IMG/VR virus record: IMGVR_UViG_3300037325_000203
Direction: 5' to 3' (one strand)
DNA: 64,000 nucleotides
Source of the DNA: a virus
Position numbers and translations under genes: made by a program. Of this stretch, positions 7,767-52,382 are shown in pieces (within the stretch, counting starts at the first letter, position 1; each line of letters begins with the position of its first letter). Below the pieces are notes generated by a model. It saw only the letters and a list, made by a program, of their open reading frames with translations. It did not search any database and was not told where the DNA came from.

Positions 7767-9905
7767 TTAAATTTTCTCCTGTTTATCTATCATACTAATA
7801 TAATTCACAATTTCATGCACCTCTGCATGTTTTAAGTATTGCAGTAAAGGGTACTTTCTGCTAAGTGCCATCTTCATATCTTCTATGTCTTTCCTCACTT
7901 TATCTGCTGTAACAAGGTTGCCGTACTTATTGCATAATTCAATAAGGTGTGTGACATCTGTGCTAATTCTTGGTGTTTTTCCAAATTTTTCGAAATACTT
8001 AGAATAATCGGACGTCACATCTAAATTTTTTGCTACCTGTGAGTTATTATACACAGCTAACTCTGCAGAGTCAAGTACATCACTTAATACCAGAGATGCA
8101 ATATGGGACTCGCCGATCTTCGCTGTCTCTTCTCTTAGCTTATCTTCTATCCACACCCAATTACTTAATTTGACCATCTCCGCTATACGACTTTTTCGTA
8201 CACCGTATACCACAATATTTTCAATAGCAGGGACGCCGGAGTTGGCCATGTTATATCGTAATTCGTAGATACCGACAAACTGTGTCCCATCTTGCAATAC
8301 AGGTGCAGCGTTACTCAGTGCTACATAGTAGTAAGTTTTAGAGCTATCTATTTCCCCGTTAATCGGCACCCATGTGTATCTGGCGTTGGGGGGGGTGTAA
8401 AACCGAATATCGGGTTTTTCAATGCAAACAGTAATTCCTTGATTAGACATCACTGTTCTGACCTTCTCTTTTACCTTTAAAGAACTGGCTTTCTCGACCA
8501 CTAATGGATTATGGAGATCCAGCAACAGAGCATCATACGCCAACTGTCGTGCTACCTCATCCACTTTGCCGTTTACCTTCGGAGTGTATGTAACACAATA
8601 TACAGTCTTCGATGAGATGCCGTAATGGAATCTAGCTCGCGCTATACAACCTGTCTTCAAGTCGTTAAGTACAAAAACAGCATTCTCTTGAATAGGTATT
8701 TCAATAGAAAGAATATGCTTCCCGGACACATATCTGTTTGTCTCCTTTACTGTATACGTCGTTCCGTAACTGACACGGAATACCTTGATCTCCAGTCCTT
8801 TTGCTTTGAGATCTGCTACAGTCATAGCAAAGTTATATCCCCGATTGTAACAAGAGTTGTCAAATAATGTAAATTTAGTATCATCGACATATTTCAATAC
8901 AGCGGCTTTATACACACTCTGCCTGAATGTCGATGACAAATACATCGACCTGTCCCAGTCGTGGGTTATCAAGTCTGCTTTAGCAGCAATGTGAGTTGCT
9001 AAATTAGCATTAAGAAGTTCTAACTTCTTCTTGATACTATCCATAGTCAGCCGTACAAAACTAAGCTCTTCTCTGGATGCAGCAAAATCTAATTCGCCAA
9101 TATCAAATTCCAATATCAGATTCTCTTTTAAAAGATTAGTAAGCCTACCAAAGTGTTCTTCTGCACCGGGAATTTTTTCACTTAGTGGATAGGCAATATT
9201 GCCCATAATTGCCACAGCGCCTTGATTACTTAATCCAATATGTACACCCGGGGCAATGTCCTTTTCCTGATACTTTGGGATAGTATGTGTGAAACCGACG
9301 CCGGTGATTGTCGGGCGGTCCGTAAACCATTTGAATACCGTATGGGCTTCTTCAATGAACCTAGTATAATCATATCGATCAGTCACGCTAAACTTAACTT
9401 CGACTCCATTTCCTTCGTCTGTAAGCTGTTCGCTCATTTCGGCCACACATGGTATGCCTGCCTGATTGATGAATGCACTGTATATACGCTGGATACCATT
9501 CTTAATTGCTGTAATAGTAAAATTTTCCGTATAGCTGAATGGTGATTTTGACCCAAGGCCGAGTGCTCCGATGTAATCGTTGGAGTCTGTTTTAGTAGAC
9601 TCAAAATAAGTCGTGTAAATATTAACGACTTGATCTCCACTCAGGCCGATTCCATAATCTCGAACCGAAAACCATGGCTCCATCGTAGATGGCAGATGTA
9701 CTTCAAATGGGACTCCTTTTTTACCGGCTGCCATGTGACTGTCTATTGCATTGCATGATAGTTCTCGGATGATTGCCCGAATTTTGTTCGAATATAGCCC
9801 GTCCGAAAGAATTTTAAAAGCCTTTGCAGAATTTCGAATCTTGAATTCTCCGGTGGCACCGGTATTTGATAGTACTACCTCATTAACTGCTACGTCTAAC
9901 TTCAT
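7767..9905 (-). CDS. rIIA: RIIA-like protein (GHKL/HSP90-type ATPase N-domain)
   Basis: LYSNKIRAIIRELSCNA.DSH, VRDYGIGL, GLGSKSPFSY. Confidence 0.9.
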   Translation of the reverse strand: MKLDVAVNEVVLSNTGATGEFKIRNSAKAFKILSDGLYSNKIRAIIRELSCNAIDSHMAAGKKGVPFEVHLPSTMEPWFSVRDYGIGLSGDQVVNIYTTYFESTKTDSNDYIGALGLGSKSPFSYTENFTITAIKNGIQRIYSAFINQAGIPCVAEMSEQLTDEGNGVEVKFSVTDRYDYTRFIEEAHTVFKWFTDRPTITGVGFTHTIPKYQEKDIAPGVHIGLSNQGAVAIMGNIAYPLSEKIPGAEEHFGRLTNLLKENLILEFDIGELDFAASREELSFVRLTMDSIKKKLELLNANLATHIAAKADLITHDWDRSMYLSSTFRQSVYKAAVLKYVDDTKFTLFDNSCYNRGYNFAMTVADLKAKGLEIKVFRVSYGTTYTVKETNRYVSGKHILSIEIPIQENAVFVLNDLKTGCIARARFHYGISSKTVYCVTYTPKVNGKVDEVARQLAYDALLLDLHNPLVVEKASSLKVKEKVRTVMSNQGITVCIEKPDIRFYTPPNARYTWVPINGEIDSSKTYYYVALSNAAPVLQDGTQFVGIYELRYNMANSGVPAIENIVVYGVRKSRIAEMVKLSNWVWIEDKLREETAKIGESHIASLVLSDVLDSAELAVYNNSQVAKNLDVTSDYSKYFEKFGKTPRISTDVTHLIELCNKYGNLVTADKVRKDIEDMKMALSRKYPLLQYLKHAEVHEIVNYISMIDKQEKI

Positions 9906-10058
9906 TGTGTGTTTTCCCCTATATACGTATATTTTACGTTAGGTGTTAATCTGTGTCAACTGGTTAAAATGATAAATAGTGAATCAATGAGGAATATGTC
10001 CTTGTTGGATAACGTAGATCCCCGAAAGGGAGTAACTATTCATTAAGGAAAATATATT

Positions 10059-15033: not shown

Positions 15034-15109
15034 AATTATGTGTTCCGATACAAGTATTTATCATTGTATAAATACTATTATAATTATATTACGGGACAAC
15101 AAACAACTC

Positions 15110-16507
15110 ATGAGACATATTATTTTCCTAAACGGAATTTGGCCAAATAGTCATCTGGCAATACCAAAGCAATACACTCGCTCTATAGGACCTTATCAAC
15201 TAAAACACTGGTTAAGCCATTTTGGATTCAGTTGCCAGGTTATCGACTATTGTCAGTTGCTAACACATAAGGAAATAGTCGAGTATGTGTCAAAATTTCT
15301 ATCTGCAGATACTATAGCAATTGGCGTGTCGACTACATTCTGGCCAACTTCTGTCAAAATACCCAATAATATAAAAGTTGCCATTGAGCACATAAAATCC
15401 GAATGGCCGAATATAAAAATTATATCGGGCGGGGCAAGGACAGTGGATATGCCAACATTATTCGATAAACATTTTTCAGGTGAATCAGAGAATGGATTAG
15501 TGGCATGGTGTCAGTCGCATGTTAAAAAATCATCTCTCTTAAATAAAAAATTTGATATAACAAAAAACAGCCACCGGTTCGATTACAGAGATGCAATAAT
15601 GCCCAGTGAGGCGCTGCCTATTGAACTAGGGCGTGGGTGCATATTTAAGTGCAAATTTTGTTCACATCATAATCTTGGTAAACCTAAATTTACATACCAG
15701 CGTCAGTTCGAGTATATATTAGATGAAATAGAATATAACAAAAAATGTTTTAATACAGACAAGTACATGCTGCTGGATGACACAGTAAATGAAGATCTAG
15801 ACAAGCTCAGGAATCTTGCAAATACAAAAAAAAGTCTCGGATTTGATATCGAGTGGACTGGGTATTTAAGAGCGGACCTTGTCTGGGCAAAACCAGAAAG
15901 TGTCGATTTGTTAGCTCAGAGTGGGTTGAGGAGTTGCTTCTTTGGTATCGAAACTTTTAATAAAACTGCAGGTAAGTCCATTGATAAGGGCTGGGCGTCA
16001 AAGCATGGTAAGGAATATATACCAAAACTTTATACCGAATTGTGGAATAAAAAGATAAACATTCATCTCAACTTTATTGCAGGATTACCCGGTGAATCTC
16101 TCATCACACTACAGGACTCATTAGAATGGTGTAAGATTCACGATATAGGATATCATAGATTTGTTCCACTAACATTATACGTTGAGAAGCAAGATAAGTT
16201 TGCTTCTTCCGAATTTACTAGAAATTATAAAGATCATGGATATACGAATGTAAATGAAACCACTGGCTACTGGGAATCAACAGAAATGACATTACCTGAA
16301 GCTACTTTATTTTGTAAAAATTCCGAACGGTCGCTTACAACTGTAAACAGAGTCTCATCGTGGGACGTCTTCTCAATGAGTAATTTAGGATTTACTACCG
16401 ATGAAGTAATGCAATGGAATTCCACTAAGTACATGTGGGCCATTTTTAGCAATAGATTAAAATTTAAAAATCTATATCTGGAACAACTAAGTAATATTCC
16501 AGATTAA
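15110..16507 (+). CDS. B12-binding-domain radical SAM enzyme
   Basis: GRGCIFKCKFC, DDTVN, FFGIETF, FIAGLPGE; likely start MRHII. Confidence 0.88.
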   Translation: MRHIIFLNGIWPNSHLAIPKQYTRSIGPYQLKHWLSHFGFSCQVIDYCQLLTHKEIVEYVSKFLSADTIAIGVSTTFWPTSVKIPNNIKVAIEHIKSEWPNIKIISGGARTVDMPTLFDKHFSGESENGLVAWCQSHVKKSSLLNKKFDITKNSHRFDYRDAIMPSEALPIELGRGCIFKCKFCSHHNLGKPKFTYQRQFEYILDEIEYNKKCFNTDKYMLLDDTVNEDLDKLRNLANTKKSLGFDIEWTGYLRADLVWAKPESVDLLAQSGLRSCFFGIETFNKTAGKSIDKGWASKHGKEYIPKLYTELWNKKINIHLNFIAGLPGESLITLQDSLEWCKIHDIGYHRFVPLTLYVEKQDKFASSEFTRNYKDHGYTNVNETTGYWESTEMTLPEATLFCKNSERSLTTVNRVSSWDVFSMSNLGFTTDEVMQWNSTKYMWAIFSNRLKFKNLYLEQLSNIPD

Positions 16508-16620
16508 CGTCTAATTTTTTAGTGTCATATTCAAAGAGATATGCGCCGTTACTGCATATAACGAAGTTAATTCGGTGTGTAGCCTGTTTGTGTGAGTAAT
16601 GCCTCGAGTGTATACATATT

Positions 16621-16695
16621 TGGTGCATCCTGTAGGAATTGAACCTACTGCCCTCACGATGTCAACGTAATGCTCTGCCAATGAGCTAAGGATGC
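16621..16695 (-). tRNA. tRNA-Val(GAC)
   Basis: Canonical cloverleaf, TTGACAT loop, ACCA. Confidence 0.85.
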
Positions 16696-16696
16696 G

Positions 16697-16927
16697 TTAT
16701 TTTATTCTAGTTGCAGGATAATTATTCTTTATCTTTTGATGGTAGTATCTACCAATAGACGGCGCCTTAGTCCACTGCTCGAATGTTGCGCGTGTTATTC
16801 CCGAAAATGTAAATCTTCTACCATTTGACAAACTCATTGTCAACAACTTATTAGCTCGACTATATCTTAAGTCAGTAATCCACGTAGATTCAACCGGCTT
16901 TTCGTTTAATAGTTCAGATACTCTCAT
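16697..16927 (-). CDS. KTSC-domain protein
   Basis: VESTWITDLRY..L.NGR.F..APSIGRYY..IK. Confidence 0.8.
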   Translation of the reverse strand: MRVSELLNEKPVESTWITDLRYSRANKLLTMSLSNGRRFTFSGITRATFEQWTKAPSIGRYYHQKIKNNYPATRIK

Positions 16928-17396
16928 GCCTCACATACTCGACAAATTTATAATTATACAGCTCATTATGACCATCCACTAAACTATTTATCTTCCAAGT
17001 TGCCAAATCTATTGTAGGGAAAAATGTGTCTGCGTTAGTGTTTGCATCCACATGAGTAATAACTAATTTATCAGCAAGGTCGATAGTTTGCGCATATATT
17101 GATGCACCACCTATCACTACTATTTCCGGGAAACAATGCTCGACGGACAAAGCGTCTTTAATACTGCCGGCGTGAACTGCCATAGTGCCCTGATACTTTG
17201 TGTGAGATATTACAATGCATTTTCTGCCTGGGAGGGACTTACTACTAACAATGGCAAACGTATTGATTCCCATCACAATGATTTTTTCCATTGTGTAGGA
17301 TTTAAAATGCCTCATGTCATCGGGTATATGCCATAATAGTTTATTTCTGTTCCCGATTTCGTTGTTGCGGCCAACTGTAGCGATTAATGTTATCAA
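16914..17396 (-). CDS. folA: Dihydrofolate reductase
   Basis: IG..NKLLWHIPDDM.HFK, LPGR, VIGGASIY, ADTFFP. Confidence 0.92.
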   Translation of the reverse strand: MITLIATVGRNNEIGNRNKLLWHIPDDMRHFKSYTMEKIIVMGINTFAIVSSKSLPGRKCIVISHTKYQGTMAVHAGSIKDALSVEHCFPEIVVIGGASIYAQTIDLADKLVITHVDANTNADTFFPTIDLATWKINSLVDGHNELYNYKFVEYVRHESI

Positions 17397-17914: not shown

Positions 17915-17990
17915 TGGTGCTGAATGTCGGATTCGAACTGACCACATCCGCCTTACAAGAGCGGCGCTCTACCAAATGAGCTAATCCAGC
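17915..17990 (-). tRNA. tRNA-Thr(TGT)
   Basis: CCGCT-CTTGTAA-GGCGG. Confidence 0.88.
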
Positions 17991-18227
17991 GTATACCTAC
18001 TATGTATCTATTATAATACTATTTATGCTATTAGTCAATTATACCAGTAATTTCACCTATAATTAAAAATATTAGAGGTGTGTTATTACACCAAAGATTC
18101 TAAGACATAATATACACATTGTATCAATAACCATGCCGGGCAGCAGGATACTTGGTTCGACTTTTATAGTAAAACATATGTATAACATCGACCCGAGACT
18201 TTTACCACTGTTCGGCGGCAGGCTTAA

Positions 18228-18290
18228 TTAGTAGGAGTTCGCTTCTCACTCTTTAAAGGATGGCCACTTCTAAGCCCACCTCCCTCTAAC
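18228..18290 (-). ncRNA. 23S rRNA H43/H44 (L11-binding, GTPase-associated centre) mimic
   Basis: GGAGGTGGGCTTAGAAGTGGCCATCCTTTAAAGAGTG closely matches the recalled bacterial 23S ~1055-1091 consensus. Confidence 0.7.
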
Positions 18291-18297
18291 ACTCAGC

Positions 18298-18329
18298 AGA
18301 ATAGGAGCCTTACGCTCCTATTCTTTTTT
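18298..18329. terminator. Hairpin after DUF2828 gene
   Basis: AGAATAGGAGC-CTTAC-GCTCCTATTCT plus T run. Confidence 0.7.
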
Positions 18330-18337
18330 AGGACTTC

Positions 18338-19738
18338 TTAGAAATCATAGCGGGCGGTCATTACAGTTTTAAGCATAATGCTGATTGGTGTCATTTCTTC
18401 GCCACCCAATACCGACTTAACGATGCTTGGGCTAAAGCCTGACACCAAGGCTGCACCTGACTCGTTGTAAGTCACTGGACTGTTGCCGGCGCGGCCATTC
18501 AGGTTCCAGAACACAATCTGTGGCATCTCGTATCCAGCATTATTGAACTCTTGTTTTACCATTTCCATAGCGCTAACACTCACGCCCCGAGAATTGGTCG
18601 AAACGCATTGATTAAATTCCATGTCAGACAGGATAAGGAGTTTGCTCGGCATTTCGCTCTGCGGTACACCGTGCTTAACGCCGGCGTTAAGCACCAGTTT
18701 AAACACTGCCTGAATGTTTGTGCTCATTCCCCAATCGGTTCGGGCCATCTGCTCGTAGCGCTGTATTAGGTTACCCGACACCTTTTGCAAAGAAGGGGTA
18801 CTACTAAAAGTAACAAATTGGTCCTTGAAAGCTCCACTTAGTCGTTCGGACAGATATAGTCCCAGAGAGATAGATACGTCCATAGCAGTTACACTACCAG
18901 ACACTTCGACGCCACTCATGGAGCCCGAGACATCTACGATTGGCAGAATATTTTCTCTTGACCCTTCGAGGTAGTTCGGCAGTGCCGCCCATTGTGCATT
19001 CGCCACAGTTGGGTCACCGTTGTTCAATGAACGAATAACATCGTATGGATATGCAACAGATGCATTGATCTTTGCCTCACCCGTAGCCAACTTAGCTTTG
19101 TAGTCGCCGTATCCCGCAGGATCATGCTTCAAGAAAGCTTTTTGGTAGCGCCCGGCGGCGACTGAGGGAACATGCGGATACACAATGCCAGTCCAGTCTT
19201 GCGCACACATTTTCTGCTCAACCGTGTTAGACAGACCGACCAGCAACTTACGGTACTGTTTCGGGGTCAATTTCAAGTAAGAGCGGATCTTGTTTGCTTC
19301 TGCACCCTGTCGAGGCATCCATTTTGCACACAATCCATCTCGGGTCTCGTTCAGTGCAAACGCAATCATGCGGAGAGCTTCGCGTTCGATGGGCGAACCG
19401 AATGCAACTAGCACATCATCCCACCGACCAAGTTCGGGCGCCTTTACCAGAACTCGGGAAGCGCTTGCCGGTTCGTTCTTCAGGATATAACTAAACAATT
19501 TCCGGAATGTATCGCGCTCACCTGCGCCGCCTCTTGCATCTCGGGCCCATTGCAATACACGAATTGCCACTTCCGAGTCTTCGACAAATGCCCCTACAAA
19601 AGTAGAGGTGATATCTTTACCGCGGCTCGCGCCGGCGAGAAAGAACAAGTCAACGTTCTTGTTCAACGAAGATGCGTTAGTAACTGCGCCGTTGGCAGTT
19701 GTAGCAGATGAATTTACGGCTTCAAATAGTGTTGTCAT
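18338..19738 (-). CDS. DUF2828-family protein with C-terminal vWA domain (possibly Ro60/TROVE-like)
   Basis: T.NGA, RDARGGAGER..F, GRWDD, AKWMPR, DVSGSM MIDAS, LSDMEF, FWNL, VSGFSP. Confidence 0.85.
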   Translation of the reverse strand: MTTLFEAVNSSATTANGAVTNASSLNKNVDLFFLAGASRGKDITSTFVGAFVEDSEVAIRVLQWARDARGGAGERDTFRKLFSYILKNEPASASRVLVKAPELGRWDDVLVAFGSPIEREALRMIAFALNETRDGLCAKWMPRQGAEANKIRSYLKLTPKQYRKLLVGLSNTVEQKMCAQDWTGIVYPHVPSVAAGRYQKAFLKHDPAGYGDYKAKLATGEAKINASVAYPYDVIRSLNNGDPTVANAQWAALPNYLEGSRENILPIVDVSGSMSGVEVSGSVTAMDVSISLGLYLSERLSGAFKDQFVTFSSTPSLQKVSGNLIQRYEQMARTDWGMSTNIQAVFKLVLNAGVKHGVPQSEMPSKLLILSDMEFNQCVSTNSRGVSVSAMEMVKQEFNNAGYEMPQIVFWNLNGRAGNSPVTYNESGAALVSGFSPSIVKSVLGGEEMTPISIMLKTVMTARYDF

Positions 19739-19748
19739 AATTTATCTC

Positions 19749-19783
19749 CAGAATTAATATTTAAAATTTGCTGTTTGAATTCT
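19749..19783 (-). promoter_or_regulatory. CAGCAA stem element overlapping DUF2828 RBS
   Basis: AGAATT-CAAACAGCAA...AATTCT-GGAG-ATAAATT-ATG. Confidence 0.65.
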
Positions 19784-19814
19784 TAAAAACATAGTATGTG
19801 ACAATTTACATGCT

Positions 19815-20045
19815 ATGTCAGGGGCGGCTACTCAAAAAGATACCAAATTGTTATTAGGTAATACAGAGGATCATCATATATTACCTAAATGCTTCAATCT
19901 CTGTGGAGAGAAAGATATAGAAAACTTTGACTTTCTTACTGTTAAGGGGCATTTTGTTGTGCATCATCCCGTGGATCAAAGTCTGTTCGAGAAATCAACA
20001 CCAACACATCATCGATGTCTACTTTGCCATCCACTATATCTCTAA
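19815..20045 (+). pseudogene. Degenerate HNH endonuclease fragment
   Basis: HHILPKC..GEKD.EN..LT.K.HF..H remnant only. Confidence 0.55.
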
Positions 20046-20072
20046 CGCAACGGCTATAACTAAGTCCAGTTT

Positions 20073-20270
20073 TCATTCTTCTGCTTCGAAATGTTCCAGT
20101 AATATTACATCAATGTGAGTTTGTTCACCATCTTCCCGTATAGCAAGATAAATTTCCTTGTCCAACACACTGATGCATTCCTGCACAATCAACTGGGCGA
20201 ATTTGTGATAATCAGGTCTTGGCAAGTCTTCCATGGACTGCTTTAGCAGTTGTTCAATTCGTTCATTCAT
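20073..20270 (-). CDS. Hypothetical phage protein (MNERI..FA.LIV.EC type)
   Basis: Small-ORF type common in phages. Confidence 0.65.
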   Translation of the reverse strand: MNERIEQLLKQSMEDLPRPDYHKFAQLIVQECISVLDKEIYLAIREDGEQTHIDVILLEHFEAEE

Positions 20271-20415
20271 GGGGTAACTCTGAAGTGTTCTTAACTAGCT
20301 TACCAAAGTAAGTTCGCTAATAAAATTGTTTTATTATTGGCGGTAACGAATCTTTTGCTTAAAAATATAGTGTACTATTATTTCTTTTATCTGTCAACTA
20401 CATTCAAAATTAAAA

Positions 20416-20645
20416 CTAGGTGATCGTAATTGGTTATTTTATTGTCTGGTCGATTTACTTTAATTACCCCGACCATATCACTAATCGTTAGTGACCGATT
20501 TCGTACTTGTGTCTGCTACGAACAACATATCGACATTCTGTCGCATATCCAATCTATTAGCGCTTAATATTTCTATCAAGTATAGCTTTGCGAGCTCACT
20601 GTCTTTGGCAACGATGCTTTATGTTTTAACTTGCTGTAATCACCT
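20416..20645 (-). ncRNA. Long CAGCAA-family ncRNA 1
   Basis: AGGTGAT-TACAGCAA...ATCACCT closing stem, internal hairpins, TCGACA-17-TATAAT upstream. Confidence 0.65.
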
Positions 20646-20690
20646 ATCAAACTTTATTATATAGTAACATCATTACAATGTCGACTAAAA

Positions 20691-20900
20691 ACAGAGTGGC
20701 GTAAGGAACACATAGTCTAAAAAGAATACATGTTGTACGGCCTTACCCGTAGATCGAACCTTTTACATCGTTCTAGGATGTTTATACCACTGTAAGTCTC
20801 CTTACGCAATAGGACCAGTTTCAACGAGTTTCCTCTCCACTGGATATATATGGTACGTACAGTTACCTTTCGGTAAGTTTTTGTTTGCTGTATCCACTCT
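20691..20900 (-). ncRNA. Long CAGCAA-family ncRNA 2
   Basis: AGAGTGG-ATACAGCAA...CCACTCT-GT closing stem, GNRA hairpins, TTGACT-18-TATAAT upstream. Confidence 0.68.
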
Positions 20901-20984
20901 TTGTGTATAACAAGTTCTATTATACAGTGTGTTTACTTATCTAGTCAACCCAAATCTGCTGCAGAAACAGGTTAACATATTGTC

Positions 20985-30970: not shown

Positions 30971-31447
30971 TTAGATGAGCACCTTCTGCATATTCATAGG
31001 CGACGCTGCAAAATCTTTTAATTCCATATACATATGATGGTACTTTGTAATGCGCTTGATGTCTTTCTCCGACACTCCTTTGAGTCTCCGGATATCACTA
31101 TTGTGTCGGAGATCAGCTATCTTGACTTTAACTGCGTCGGGATTTGACTTAATCTGGTCAAGATATTCATCGTTAGTAAATCCTGGGGACTTAGTCATCG
31201 CACGTATACCATGAATAATTCTATCAGTAAATCCCATAGATCCTAGCAGGTGATACGTTACGTCAGTATCTTCTACTAAGTCATGACCTAGTGCAATGCA
31301 CTGTAATTCCTCATCAGCAGAATCCCCGAGATAATGCATAACTTTGAGGCAATGCATTACGTAGGGAACACCGCCCTTGTCGAAAACACCGTCAAAGTTT
31401 TTAGTTGCTAAGACTAGCATCATGTTAAGCATCTCACCACGGTACAT
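30971..31447 (-). CDS. HD-domain (RelA/SpoT hydrolase, Mesh1-like) protein
   Basis: DKGG.PY..H, HDLVED, VKIADL.HN. Confidence 0.85.
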   Translation of the reverse strand: MYRGEMLNMMLVLATKNFDGVFDKGGVPYVMHCLKVMHYLGDSADEELQCIALGHDLVEDTDVTYHLLGSMGFTDRIIHGIRAMTKSPGFTNDEYLDQIKSNPDAVKVKIADLRHNSDIRRLKGVSEKDIKRITKYHHMYMELKDFAASPMNMQKVLI

Positions 31448-31477: not shown

Positions 31478-31954
31478 CTATCTAGCCATAATGTCAAGCT
31501 GAAGTTTGTAAAGTGCAGCAAAGTATTCGGGTGACTTCACTTCTCCGTAATGTTTATACCAAACAGGGCGCTCACTTATACGAAGGTTAATTCGTGCGAC
31601 ATTGACTGCAACTTCGGCAGTGTTCGATACCCACCTGTCCAATGTAAATTCTTCAGGAATCTCCTTAAAGAAAATATCCATGGTACTGTGCTCCGAGATA
31701 TTATAATCTCGATTAACTAATTCATACGTCAGTTCAGTGTACCGATTTGCAAGCCAAGTCATTTTATCAAAGAAAAAATACCCATGTCCTTTATTAAGGG
31801 TATATGTTGGACTAATCTTCTTGAGTATTTCATCTATGGATTGAGTCTTTAATGATCGGCGCAGCATCTGGGGTGCCATCTTAATTTCGCGCCATTCAGC
31901 AAATAAATGTTGATCTGCAAGGTCTTGCACGTAAACTAGATTAACTCGTGTCAT
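31478..31954 (-). CDS. denV: Pyrimidine-dimer DNA glycosylase (endonuclease V)
   Basis: MTRVNLV..LADQHLFAEWRE, GH..FF.DK. Confidence 0.9.
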   Translation of the reverse strand: MTRVNLVYVQDLADQHLFAEWREIKMAPQMLRRSLKTQSIDEILKKISPTYTLNKGHGYFFFDKMTWLANRYTELTYELVNRDYNISEHSTMDIFFKEIPEEFTLDRWVSNTAEVAVNVARINLRISERPVWYKHYGEVKSPEYFAALYKLQLDIMAR

Positions 31955-32524
31955 TTACATATTTCCTGGACTCGTCTGACTACCTTGGTCTACCTGGCTT
32001 CTCTTGAGAATACATTAGTCGAAACGTGCAATGATTATTTTCATCTAATTTAGCTAATTTTTCTTTTAAAAAACAGCGGGCGTATTGTTCAAGGTATTTA
32101 TTCATAATATGCAATGTTTATCCATCGAGTAGATCCTCCCGGTTTAAGGCCGGGCTTGCATGATACACTACTATACTCGATGGATAAACACAGCGGGGAA
32201 GGGCTATAGTTCTTCCCATGTGTTTAAAATAAGCGGCAGATTAGAGCCGTCCCAGGATTTGCACTTGCCAGGTCTCTCTTTCGAGCGCATTACTATATGC
32301 TACAGGATAATCTGTCAGGTAGACTACATTGTAGTCTACCTTTTGCTAGCCACTATTATAGCAATGATGCTGGAATCTGTCAACAGGTTATGGTCCATCC
32401 TTTAACGCATTATCGATCTGTCGTCTAACATATTTGAGGTTTGGTTCGGAAATTGTATTAACCATTTCGTAGACTGTAAGATCTTCCCTAGTTGGTTATA
32501 AGGCGTATACTTTGGTCGTAAAAA

Positions 32525-32815
32525 CAGGGACCGAAGTCCCCATTGGTTGTTTATTTTACAAGGTAAGTCCTACCTCGGAGCGGCAGTTTCTTAGGCTGCG
32601 ACCATATCTGCGAAAGCAGACATGTTCAACTCGTTTGTATTTGCGTTTGCATTTACGATTTTGTATCATTTACGTCGGTTACATGACGATTCTATGTATA
32701 ATTTTGCCTGCGCGGTCGATAGCCAGTTCACCCCCACCTAAGTACCCTAAGTTACTTAGGTGGAGGTGGAGGAAGTCGAATCCTCGTGTCGCACATTCTC
32801 TGTTACACACTTGCT
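32525..32815 (-). ncRNA. ssrA: Circularly permuted two-piece tmRNA
   Basis: T-arm/acceptor GAGGATTCGACTTCCTCCACCTCCACC precedes GGGGGTGAACTGGCTATCGAC; tag frame ANANTNELNMSAFADMVAA*; terminator follows. Confidence 0.88.
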
Positions 32816-33258
32816 AACTAAATAGCAGAATTTCTCTTTAATCTATCTGCCGTGTACCCTCTTTTTAGAAAAGCGTCTTGGTCATACAGATTAATTATGC
32901 ATTTTGTGTTATCTAAACTCATCCAACACGTAGTTACAGTCTTACTTTTTTTACCAATTACCTATCGTGTTGCTAGCACATTTTGAAAACACAGAAGAGC
33001 AGAATGGTATTGGACGAGTTGGGTAACGTCTTGGGTATAACATCGGGCTTCCTGTCAGTATTTAGTTAAGCACTATCAAGACATGACTAGTGCCTCTACG
33101 TTTCGTCTAACGGTCGGATGCAGCCGACTGCTGAGGTGCGCTACCACCTTTAACATTTAGTCAAATAGTGCTTAGCCTCAATTATAACAACCAGACGCAG
33201 TTAGACGCAAGTATCCAAGTGTGTTAGCATAATTACACGTGATATCTTAACTGAGGCA

Positions 33259-51509: not shown

Positions 51510-52382
51510 TAAAGGTCTGAGATTACAACCTTTACTAATGAAACTTCAAGTATTATCAATTAGCCTTGCGAGCTAACCTTCTCTTGACATCCACCCGGTC
51601 TGCTTTCACAGTATCCAAGTATTTCACCAACATCGCCGTTTAGAGTCAGGCATTGGACTTGACATGATATTCTACTCTGTAACTTCATTCCCGTCTGCCT
51701 TGCGAGCAGTTCACAGTCGCTAAACCGTTCCGAACTTCCTGTTACAAACCAACTTTGCCTTGCGAGCTCTGTCAGACTTGGTTACCTTGCGGCCCAAGTA
51801 TTAGATGTTTTTCAAATATCACCGAAGTAGTCTTTGCTTTTTATTTCAATAAACCTTTGAAGCGGATTTGTAGTCCAAATCTACTGTGATGTGCTACTTC
51901 AGTTGCTGAATATCTTGTTAGATACCCAATACAACACACCACGTACCTTTTGCCTTGCGAGCTACTCAGTCGTCTTTCACGATACATGTCATACATACGG
52001 ATTTTACTCCGGTCACGGCGTGCCATATTCCGATCAAACTGCATACAAGCCCTTAGTTGCGACGCTTCGGACAAATATGCTACCCTTTCTCATACCATCT
52101 ACTAAGTTGGTTTGTCGAGAGGTCAGCACCACCTGTTACTCTTTGCTTACTTGCGTTACCCTTGCGGGCGCTTGAGCAAACATTCTTTCCTCGACACTTA
52201 CTTCAATGTTATCTCACCCGGTGTTACCTCAGATAAGTATGCCTTACGGCATTGAGCAGGCTTGCCTAGTATTCCCTTGCAGGCGACGGTATGTAGAAGT
52301 CCCGTCCTTTCCACGTCTCGCGACGCTTGTCATTCGCTGCAGGCTGGGCGAACCATACCTGCAACAGGAGCTAGGCCCCCTT
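51510..52382 (-). ncRNA. Giant structured RNA, GOLLD-like
   Basis: ~870 nt, GC-richer, no credible ORF, repeated GCTCGCAAGGC GNRA hairpins, inside tRNA array. Confidence 0.7.

What the first reader, a model, noticed from the sequence alone, without database searches (positions are those of the whole stretch)
18228..18290. Phage-encoded mimic of the 23S rRNA L11-binding (GTPase-associated) domain
Seen: the minus strand reads GGAGGTGGGCTTAGAAGTGGCCATCCTTTAAAGAGTGAGAAGCGAACTCCT, closed by TTAG-AGG/CCT-A-CTAA. From memory, a common bacterial H43-H44 sequence is GGAGGTTGGCTTAGAAGCAGCCATCCTTTAAAGAGTG, giving 34 of 37 positions identical. No other rRNA sequence flanks it, and it lies directly downstream of DUF2828. 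Inference: a decoy for uL11 or for toxins that attack this site. Because RelA activation needs uL11, it could dampen the stringent response along with the HD hydrolase at 30971.
Basis: partly seen in the sequence, partly recalled or inferred. Interest (0 to 1): 0.85.

Follow-up and report, generated by a model that had tools for sequence, protein, structure and literature searches.

The report
Phage RNA copying ribosome's uL11 site
This phage carries a roughly 230-base non-coding RNA gene whose two ends fold into a copy of the small 23S rRNA domain that binds protein uL11 and meets the translation GTPases. It belongs to a large phage RNA family that I found in no database or paper, and it probably imitates that ribosomal site away from the ribosome.

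Summary
The full element is window 18066-18296 (minus strand). It has a 9-12 bp closing helix, a helix-43 copy, a 158-nt insertion, and the true helix-44 copy at 18080-18091. A covariance model built from 33 other phage elements finds it once in the window, full length (86 bits, E 6e-26).

IMG/VR holds well over 150 such elements (95 by a 5' pattern, at least 119 by a 3' pattern, mostly different). Only one of the 96 loci found with the 5' pattern was real rRNA. The elements lie in tRNA arrays, always on the tRNA strand. Helices covary, including the tertiary 1082:1086 pair. The 1072/1092/1099 base triple switches together from C/C/G to U/U/A; the window has U/U/A.

Rfam 15 has no such family, and the papers I searched describe none. 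DUF2828 adjacency is not general. Five complete carrier phages encode no uL11.

Best reading: a free-standing imitation of the GTPase-associated centre that binds a host ligand, most likely uL11. That function is inferred, not shown.

This scan has already noted the same family on at least 22 other genomes; my tests here were run independently.

The parts
18066..18296 (-). Whole GAC-mimic RNA element, about 230 nt
   Evidence: Full-length hit of family model R1, which was built without the window: 86.4 bits, E 6.4e-26, model 1-178 of 178, and the only hit in 64 kb. The MFE fold of 18062-18298 pairs the two ends.
18283..18291 (-). 5' strand of the closing helix (H42-top equivalent, E. coli 1047-1055); can extend to 18294
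   Evidence: Pairs with 18070-18078 as UUAGAGG with CCUCUAA plus extension. In the family these 9 pairs are 82-100% paired with all Watson-Crick types.
18257..18281 (-). Helix 43 copy (1057-1081), including the 1066-1072 loop with A1067
   Evidence: cmscan LSU alignment. The 1058:1080 pair is G:C here and takes all four Watson-Crick types across the family, 68 of 68 paired.
18250..18256 (-). Junction segment UUAAAGA (1082-1088), with the U1082:A1086 pair and A1088, the tertiary partner of U1060
   Evidence: 1082:1086 covaries in the family (U:A 31, C:G 15, A:U 8). U1060/A1088 is kept in 54 of 55.
18092..18249 (-). 158-nt insertion between the 5' GAGU and the 3' UUUG-G1091.
   Evidence: Insertion at the same point in all family members, 45-365 nt long. 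Its basal helix covaries (columns 50-53 with 177-180). Constrained fold.
18080..18091 (-). Helix 44 copy, 3' part (G1091-C1102: GUGUAAUAACAC) with the GUAAUA loop (1093-1098)
   Evidence: U1092 and A1099 here go with U1072 at 18266, the compensated U/U/A form of the 1072/1092/1099 triple.
18070..18078 (-). 3' strand of the closing helix (1104-1112), followed by a U-rich tail (18058-18069)
   Evidence: The scan flags a terminator-like site at 18077-18092 with tail UCUAAUAUUU.
18298..18324 (.). 11-bp hairpin between the DUF2828 stop codon and the element (context)
   Evidence: It has a T-run only on the plus strand, so it is not a clear minus-strand terminator. Read-through from the ORF is possible.
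18338..19738 (-). Upstream ORF with DUF2828 + DUF7788, PHROG 'RNA-binding protein' (context, not a general partner)
   Evidence: Pfam E 4e-25 and 1e-51; phrog_850 E 4e-153. Near the element in only 5 of 122 loci.
17915..17990 (-). tRNA-Thr 78 nt downstream on the same strand, behind a promoter-like site at 18010-18038 (context)

Best explanation
Identity (shown, about 0.95). Window 18066-18296(-) is one gene of a large, unnamed family of phage non-coding RNAs. A variable 9-12 bp helix closes the RNA. Inside it the RNA rebuilds the 58-nt GTPase-associated centre of 23S rRNA (top of H42, H43, H44; E. coli 1051-1108). A variable extra domain is inserted at one fixed point in the 5' strand of H44.

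Mechanism (inferred, about 0.45). The RNA is made with the phage's tRNAs or by read-through from the upstream ORF. It folds into the compact tertiary structure of the rRNA domain. It then acts off the ribosome as an imitation of that site, binding a host ligand of the stalk base. The most likely ligand is ribosomal protein uL11, which recognises the folded shape of this domain. Taking up free or exchangeable uL11 would yield uL11-poor ribosomes. From established knowledge (relC mutants), such ribosomes cannot activate RelA, which would blunt the stringent response during infection. Binding, expression and any effect on the host are not shown.
For: Membership:
- R1 hit at 86 bits, E 6e-26, full length.
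- Cultured phages score 88-116 bits, and a real 23S scores only 55.

Fold:
- On 33 sequences, 93.7% of cells pair against 70.6% in shuffles (0 of 500 reach it).
- The covariation score is 0.605 against 0.156 in shuffles and 0.09-0.18 for slid partners. 19 of 26 pairs have double changes.

Tertiary-structure signatures of the real domain:
- The 1072/1092/1099 triple is C/C/G in 54, U/U/A in 13, with one exception.
- The 1082:1086 pair is U:A 31, C:G 15, A:U 8. U1060/A1088 is kept in 54 of 55.
- G1059, U1060, G1071, C1072, A1077, A1085 and G1087 are invariant in a sample anchored only on the 3' half.

Constraint pattern:
- Fold-critical bases are fixed, while the exposed A1067 is relaxed (45 of 55). 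From knowledge, A1067 is universal in ribosomes and is needed for factor, tRNA and thiostrepton contacts. This pattern fits selection for the fold and a shape-reading protein rather than for ribosomal function.

Partner must be host-encoded:
- No conserved neighbouring protein.
- No uL11 gene in 5 complete carrier genomes, with 14 of 14 positive controls.

Expression context:
- 52 of 68 elements have tRNAs within 2 kb: 231 on the same strand, 0 on the opposite strand. Many abut a tRNA within about 10 nt.

Established knowledge (memory; Draper, Wimberly and Conn work, 1990s): the isolated 1051-1108 fragment folds on its own and binds L11 and thiostrepton.
Against: - No binding, expression or phenotype data exist.
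- uL11 is abundant and mostly ribosome-bound, so a sponge would need very high RNA levels or would act mainly on new or exchanging uL11.
- The insertion enters at the H44 5' strand. I could not check it against the uL11 and uL10 footprints, so it might block a natural ligand or be the functional part itself.
- The H44 loop stays highly conserved (A1095 kept in all but two sequence types). That also fits ligands other than uL11.
- My samples were drawn with exact patterns, so conservation inside each pattern is by construction.
- In this window there is no tRNA directly upstream and no clear promoter for the element.
Confidence: 0.45

Rival explanations
1. Decoy substrate. The RNA soaks up a host or competitor enzyme that attacks the GTPase-associated centre (an ADP-ribosyltransferase, nuclease or methyltransferase) and so spares ribosomes, much as phage tRNA arrays are thought to replace tRNAs hit by defence nucleases.
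For: - A toxin that hits exactly this site exists: Tre23 ADP-ribosylates H44 around 1095-1098 within 1043-1123 (PMC8661411).
- The H44 loop is well kept: G-U-A at 1093-1095 and A1098 in 87 of 96 loci found with the 5' pattern, with only three variant types.
- The elements lie in tRNA arrays on the same strand.
Against: - I know of no anti-phage defence that targets this site, and none turned up.
- A stoichiometric RNA is a poor answer to a catalytic enzyme.
- A1067 is relaxed.
- No linked antitoxin-like or repair gene is conserved.
Confidence: 0.2
2. Scaffold. The GAC fold, perhaps held by uL11, is only a stable chassis. The variable inserted domain carries the real activity, possibly inside a phage RNP; in this window that could involve the adjacent DUF2828 'RNA-binding' protein in a Ro/Y-RNA-like pairing.
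For: - Every member has an insertion at the same point, with a covarying basal helix.
- Subsets share insertion modules such as CACCCCGKAAMYGGUAAGG next to the 3' junction.
- DUF2828 is the second most frequent neighbour (5 of 122).
- XacN1 has a 2'-5' RNA ligase gene just upstream.
Against: - Insertions differ widely in length (45-365 nt) and sequence, whereas the GAC part is the conserved part.
- DUF2828 is absent from pf16, XacN1 and a complete 518-kb phage, and its position and distance vary.
- DUF2828 has no detectable sequence relative in the PDB.
Confidence: 0.15
3. Factor or tRNA trap. The free stalk-base copy binds translational GTPases (EF-G, EF-Tu, IF2), RelA or tRNA elbows directly and so retunes translation.
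For: - From memory: EF-G binds oligoribonucleotides of this domain (Munishkin and Wool 1997).
- Some phages encode bL12 stalk domains (PMC6375957). One carrier genome has bL12-like ORFs, one of them about 2 kb from the element.
Against: - A1067, the base that meets factors and the tRNA elbow, is replaced in 10 of 55.
- No companion sarcin-ricin-loop mimic exists: the 12 IMG/VR hits were 4 real rRNAs and 8 unrelated chance matches.
- bL12 occurs in only 1 of 5 carrier genomes.
Confidence: 0.1
4. Dead fragment of host rRNA captured by the phage, or chance similarity.
For: The local LSU score is modest (20 bits). The window element has no close relative in the cultured-phage collection.
Against: - Hundreds of independent phage copies show compensatory changes in every helix and in the base triple.
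- Shared family-specific features are absent from rRNA.
- 1058:1080 differs from the host type in Pseudomonas, Xanthomonas and Aeromonas phages.
- There is one full copy per complete genome.
Confidence: 0.02

Closest known systems
GTPase-associated centre of bacterial 23S rRNA (top of H42, H43, H44; E. coli 1051-1108; the 58-nt uL11- and thiostrepton-binding domain)
   Same: - Same secondary structure and the same invariant bases: G1059, U1060, G1071, C1072, A1077, A1085, G1087, A1088.
- Same 1082:1086 pair and the same 1072/1092/1099 triple with its known C/C/G to U/U/A switch.
- G.A or A.A at 1056/1103.
- GUAAYA loop in H44.
   Different: - Free-standing gene with no other rRNA around it, closed by its own variable helix.
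- A 45-365 nt insertion in the 5' strand of H44.
- A at 1101 and an extra UUUG before G1091.
- A1067 is not invariant.
- Encoded by phages among tRNA genes.
rRNA-mimicking leaders of ribosomal-protein operons (for example the L10 leader, which imitates the uL10 site next to this domain; L1, L20 and S15 leaders)
   Same: RNA that imitates an rRNA protein-binding site and works by binding the free ribosomal protein.
   Different: - Those are cis-acting mRNA leaders upstream of the regulated r-protein gene in cellular genomes. They copy only a small motif.
- This is a trans-encoded, complete domain copy in phages, with no r-protein gene nearby.
- No Rfam leader family matches it. The only such hit is L20_leader at E 0.22 on the wrong strand.
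Phage-encoded translation RNAs: tRNA arrays, tmRNA, and the large tRNA-associated GOLLD/ROOL RNAs
   Same: Same genomic niche and strand. This window also carries 32 tRNAs, a tmRNA and a GOLLD RNA.
   Different: - No sequence or structure relation to any of them. Rfam 15 finds none of these at the element.
- It copies an rRNA domain, not a tRNA.
RNA decoys and mimics such as 6S RNA (open-promoter mimic), Y RNA with Ro60, and phage pseudo-ToxI
   Same: A possible logic of titrating a protein with a look-alike RNA.
   Different: - Different targets and folds.
- No Ro-type helix was tested or seen.
- The adjacency to a DUF2828 protein is not conserved.

Membership tests
   86.4 bits, E 6.4e-26, model 1-178 of 178, single hit in the window. 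Five cultured phages score 88-116 bits.
   Window 18283-18291 pairs with 18070-18078. Family mean contiguous length is 7.6 bp for an element's own strands against 2.2 for mismatched partners.
   The window has U1072/U1092/A1099, the minority compensated form (13 of 68). It also has G at 1073, giving a U.G wobble.
   158-nt insertion at 18092-18249, followed by CUUUG-GUGUAAUAACAC.
   tRNA-Thr lies 78 nt downstream and 4 same-strand tRNAs lie within 2 kb. Atypical here: a protein gene, not a tRNA, is upstream.
23S rRNA gene or gene fragment (Rfam LSU_rRNA models) | Score at or above the Rfam gathering threshold, with continuation into flanking rRNA helices | tested here: not met
   20 bits against a gathering score of 50, and only model positions 1180-1233 match. 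The flanks are an ORF and a tRNA.
Ribosomal-protein leader (cis-regulatory rRNA mimic) | Sits in the 5' UTR of the regulated ribosomal-protein gene | tested here: not met
   No r-protein gene lies next to the element here or in 122 loci. There is no uL11 gene in 5 carrier genomes.
Y RNA / Ro60-type RNP | Obligatory linkage to a Ro/TROVE-like protein gene | tested here: not met
   DUF2828 lies near the element in 5 of 122 loci and is absent from 3 of 5 complete carrier genomes. Whether DUF2828 is TROVE-like was not established (no PDB sequence hit).
uL11-binding RNA (functional class) | Binds uL11 with the Mg2+-dependent tertiary fold of 1051-1108 | not testable with these tools
   Only indirect support: the fold-defining bases and tertiary pairs are conserved and covary.

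The most novel reading that the evidence does not exclude
Many tailed phages, jumbo phages in particular, express a free-standing copy of the ribosome's stalk base from their tRNA arrays. It would act as an anti-host RNA that captures host uL11 (perhaps together with uL10/bL12), or absorbs effectors aimed at this site. Either way it would uncouple infected-cell translation from RelA-dependent stringent control or from ribosome-directed immunity. That would make it a third class of phage-encoded translation RNA beside tRNA and tmRNA.
Probability: 0.35. Interest if true: 0.9.

Novelty: categorically new. Interest (0 to 1): 0.8.

Why it matters
- Phages are known to bring tRNAs, tmRNA and a few ribosomal proteins, but I found no report of a virus-encoded, stand-alone copy of an rRNA functional domain.
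- The copied domain is one of the best-studied RNA-protein modules. It is the site of uL11, thiopeptide antibiotics, GTPase docking, RelA activation and a known toxin, so clear hypotheses and ready assays exist.
- Cultured carriers with tractable hosts are available: Pseudomonas phages pf16, UNO-G1W1, Astolliot and Milchi; Aeromonas phage 4_4572; Xanthomonas phages XacN1 and probably XaC1 (5' core only, not checked with the model).
- If it binds uL11, it shows a new way for viruses to take over or blind the host's translation stress sensing.
- Even if the function differs, the family offers hundreds of natural variants of the GAC fold with an engineered-looking insertion site.
- It also corrects annotations: in UNO-G1W1 and Milchi a 'hypothetical protein' is called across it.

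Tried and rejected
I tested whether other members carry a copy of the 3' closing strand early in the insertion. None of 68 does, against about 1 expected by chance. Rejected as a family feature.
- **DUF2828 as partner.** tblastn found it in 2 of 96 loci, ORF clustering in 5 of 122, and whole-genome search in 1-2 of 5. Rejected as a general partner.
- **Other neighbours.** The commonest are HNH homing endonucleases (10 of 122) and TerD (5 of 122). Nothing is specific to the element.
- **Phage-encoded uL11.** None in 5 genomes. bL12 is in 1 of 5 and HD_4 in 1-2 of 5.
- **Companion sarcin-ricin-loop mimic.** None found.
- **Rfam 15.** No family at the element in the window, in L003 or in 14 loci.
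- **Literature.** Eight searches found no description. The 10,006-candidate phage RNA catalogue (PMC10690425) reports no rRNA overlap. Its supplements are not held, so I cannot exclude that the family sits there unnamed.
- **Bacterial genomes.** The 3' pattern gave only 15 hits in 185,579 species genomes, nearly all on MAG contigs. At least 11 of them have a 5' half upstream.
- **Own genome.** Not held. There is no near relative of the window among 50,697 phage records.
- **Structure relatives of the DUF2828 protein.** The PDB sequence search gave nothing meaningful.
- **Complex prediction.** Not used: it takes no RNA.

Full report
**1. The observation**

- A whole-window Rfam scan at gathering thresholds finds 29 tRNAs, a tmRNA and a GOLLD RNA, all on the minus strand, and nothing at this place. 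ARAGORN finds 32 tRNAs and a tmRNA.
- A permissive scan of 18100-18400 gives one meaningful hit: LSU_rRNA_archaea model positions 1180-1233 on 18233-18285(-), 20 bits, E 4e-4 for the 301 nt searched. That block is the H43/H44 region, E. coli about 1051-1108 by my knowledge of the numbering.
- The 27-nt core pattern GGCTTAGAAGNNGCCANCNTTTAAAGA occurs once in the window, even with three mismatches allowed, and never in 100 shuffles.
- The ORF ending 41 nt upstream (18338-19738, minus) carries DUF7788 and DUF2828.

So the core observation holds.

**2.

I scanned IMG/VR with the core pattern and got 96 loci.

- Only one of them, L080, is real 23S. It continues into GCGTAATAGCTCAC and carries the GGATAACAGGCT motif I used as a marker of the peptidyl-transferase region.
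- The other 95 have unrelated flanks.
- When I read on downstream, 87 of 96 sequences (95 loci plus the window) showed a second conserved block, G-Y-G-U-A-N-N-A-R-C-N-C, lying 47-340 nt after the first. It is followed by the reverse complement of the bases that precede the first block.
- The window has it too: CUUUG-GUGUAAUAACAC at 18080-18091, then CCUCUAA at 18070-18078, which pairs with UUAGAGG at 18283-18291.
- An unconstrained MFE fold of 18062-18298 also pairs the two ends (-64.5 kcal/mol; shuffles average -54.9; z = -2.3).

No other family member has an equivalent local closure (0 of 68).

**3. Formal membership**

I aligned 33 other elements with short insertions (A1) and built covariance model R1 on the GAC secondary structure.

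| Target | Result |
|---|---|
| Window (64 kb) | one hit, 18066-18296(-), 86.4 bits, E 6.4e-26, full model length |
| Five cultured phages | 88-116 bits |
| Real 23S in L080 | 55 bits |
| Five complete carrier genomes | one full-length hit in four; three partial hits at one locus in the 409-kb phage |

**4. The fold is under selection**

On A1, 93.7% of cells pair against 70.6% in column shuffles (0 of 500 reach it). The covariation score is 0.605 against 0.156 in shuffles and 0.09-0.18 with slid partners. Nineteen of 26 pairs show double changes.

In 68 distinct elements anchored on the 5' pattern:

- The 1058:1080 pair is G:C 28, U:A 22, A:U 14, C:G 4.
- The nine closing pairs are 82-100% paired with all Watson-Crick types. 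Contiguous length averages 7.6 bp for an element's own strands against 2.2 for mismatched partners.
- Position 1056/1103 is G.A or A.A, as in rRNA.

Two signatures of the tertiary structure of the real domain are reproduced:

- The 1072/1092/1099 triple is C/C/G in 54 and U/U/A in 13, with one exception. The window has U/U/A. From memory, this same switch is the classic phylogenetic evidence for the triple in rRNA (Conn, Gutell and Draper, 1998).
- The 1082:1086 pair is U:A 31, C:G 15, A:U 8.

In it:

- G1059, U1060, G1063, U1066, G1071, C1072, C1075, A1077, A1085 and G1087 are invariant.
- A1088 is kept in 54 of 55.
- The exposed A1067 is A in only 45 of 55.

**5. Not a captured host fragment**

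- All members share features that rRNA lacks: the insertion at one fixed point, UUUG before G1091, and A at 1101.
- In phages of Pseudomonas, Xanthomonas and Aeromonas the 1058:1080 pair is G:C or A:U. The proteobacterial 23S in L080 has U:A.
- With the insertion removed, the window matches L080 at 41 of 58 positions. The family consensus matches at 42 of 48 over 1056-1103.

**6. Context**

- Of 68 distinct elements, 52 have a tRNA within 2 kb. That is 231 tRNAs on the same strand and none on the opposite strand.
- In 23 elements a tRNA ends within 100 nt upstream, and in 28 one starts within 100 nt downstream, often within about 10 nt.
- In pf16 the element fills the unannotated gap between tRNA-Asn and tRNA-Pro.
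- In XacN1 it follows a 2'-5' RNA ligase gene.
- In UNO-G1W1 and Milchi a hypothetical protein is annotated under the match.
- In this window the arrangement is less typical. Upstream lie an ORF and an 11-bp hairpin. Downstream lie a U-rich tail, a promoter-like site (11 of 12 matches) and then tRNA-Thr.

Clustering the ORFs within 4 kb of 122 elements shows no common partner:

| Neighbour | Loci (of 122) |
|---|---|
| HNH endonucleases | 10 |
| DUF2828 | 5 |
| TerD | 5 |

Whole-genome searches of five carrier phages (XacN1, pf16 and three complete IMG/VR genomes) find:

| Family | Genomes with a hit (of 5) |
|---|---|
| uL11 | 0 (14 of 14 positive controls) |
| DUF2828 | 1-2 |
| bL12 | 1 |
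| HD_4 | 1-2 |

A scan for a sarcin-ricin-loop counterpart found only real rRNA or chance matches inside unrelated sequence. In 185,579 species genomes the 3' pattern occurs 15 times, almost all on MAG contigs. The family is therefore essentially viral.

**7. How it probably works**

Shown: it is a conserved, self-closed copy of the GTPase-associated centre, with its tertiary-structure signatures, encoded by phages next to tRNAs.

Inferred:

- Every fold-defining base is fixed while the base that serves ribosomal function (A1067) is relaxed.
- No phage protein travels with the element.
- Together these suggest that the RNA presents the shape of the domain to a host ligand away from the ribosome.
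- uL11 is the ligand known to recognise that shape on an isolated 58-nt fragment (established knowledge, from memory).
- Loss of uL11 from ribosomes abolishes RelA activation (relC; established knowledge). So a uL11 sponge that blunts the stringent response is the most economical mechanism. I give it about 0.45.

Rivals:

- **Decoy substrate (0.2).** A decoy for enzymes that attack this site. Tre23 shows that such toxins exist (PMC8661411).
- **Scaffold (0.15).** The GAC fold is a chassis and the insertion carries the activity, possibly with DUF2828 in this phage.
- **Factor, tRNA or RelA trap (0.1).** Weakened by the A1067 variation and the lack of an SRL partner.
- **Dead fragment (0.02).**

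**8.

That 158-aa ORF does resemble the N-terminal hydrolase region of SpoT/RelA proteins (TIGR00691 positions 4-82, E 1e-7; Pfam HD and HD_4 below cut-off). A small alarmone hydrolase is therefore plausible. The co-occurrence data do not tie it to the RNA.

**9. Novelty**

- Rfam 15 has no family for the element.
- Eight full-text searches found no description.
- A catalogue of 10,006 candidate phage RNAs reports no overlap with rRNA predictions. I could not search its supplements.
- This scan has noted the same family on at least 22 other genomes, with follow-up reports that reached similar conclusions. I treated those as leads and re-derived the evidence here.
- New in this report, as far as I can see from those notes:
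  - the 3'-anchored conservation profile showing a relaxed A1067;
  - the negative SRL control;
  - the absence of uL11 genes in carrier genomes;
  - the neighbour-gene census.

**10. Limits**

- Samples were drawn with exact patterns, so conservation inside a pattern is by construction. I used the opposite half for each estimate.
- E. coli numbering and the structural roles of individual bases come from my knowledge, anchored on the real 23S in L080.
- R1 E-values come from a shortened calibration.
- Nothing here shows transcription or binding.

Noticed in passing
window 51514-51942 (-): A full-length GOLLD RNA (194 bits, E 3e-53) sits among the second tRNA cluster of this phage.
   Followed up: no
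window 32500-32881 (-): A phage-encoded tmRNA is called as permuted (two-piece) type by both Rfam and ARAGORN, with tag peptide ANANTNELNMSAFADMVAA.
   Followed up: no
window 30971-31447 (-): A 158-aa ORF resembles the N-terminal (p)ppGpp-hydrolase region of SpoT/RelA (TIGR00691 positions 4-82, E 1e-7; Pfam HD and HD_4 below cut-off). It is possibly a small alarmone hydrolase. Next to it (31478-31954) is a pyrimidine-dimer DNA glycosylase.
   Followed up: partly
window 15038-17396: A B12-binding radical SAM protein (15038-16507, plus strand) and a dihydrofolate reductase (16914-17396, minus strand) flank tRNA genes just downstream of the element.
   Followed up: no
loci L003, L029, L032, L033, L047, L051, L073 and L001, L066, L076, L091, L161, L184 (3' end of their insertions): Many insertions share a module, CACCCCG(G/U)AA(A/C)(C/U)GGUAAGG, just before the 3' junction. 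A second group (L007, L044, L075, L090) shares GGGGAAGGACAAGUACAGUUUGUA. The window's insertion has neither. No Rfam or LSU match was seen for the module in L003.
   Followed up: partly
L221 (Pseudomonas phage UNO-G1W1, locus 675-782): A 'hypothetical protein' CDS is annotated on the opposite strand inside the RNA element. This is probably a miscall. The Milchi record also has a hypothetical protein under the match.
   Followed up: no
G001 (IMGVR_UViG_3300017917_001342, 518 kb), 131946-132035 and 134051-134274: A weak bL12-domain match (25 bits, just below the 25.9-bit cut-off, 69-aa frame) lies about 2 kb upstream of this phage's GAC-mimic RNA. A clear bL12-domain ORF lies at 9780-9983.
   Followed up: no
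L113 (Xanthomonas phage XacN1, locus 1829-2479): The element directly follows a gene annotated as 2'-5' RNA ligase. With DUF2828 in this window, that makes two RNA-handling neighbours, but neither recurs across the family.
   Followed up: partly
window 18228-20950 (-): Another note of this scan (e1-5743470) proposes a dispersed family of 'AG-stem-CAGCAA' RNAs around the DUF2828 gene. I did not examine them.
   Followed up: no
L102, L111, L120, L137, L152, L163, L164 and others: A sizeable subgroup has the C1082:G1086 form (AUCNNCUAAGGAGU), as in the Rfam archaeal LSU consensus. Another has A:U (UAUAAUGAGU). The family is much more diverse than the exact patterns show.
   Followed up: partly
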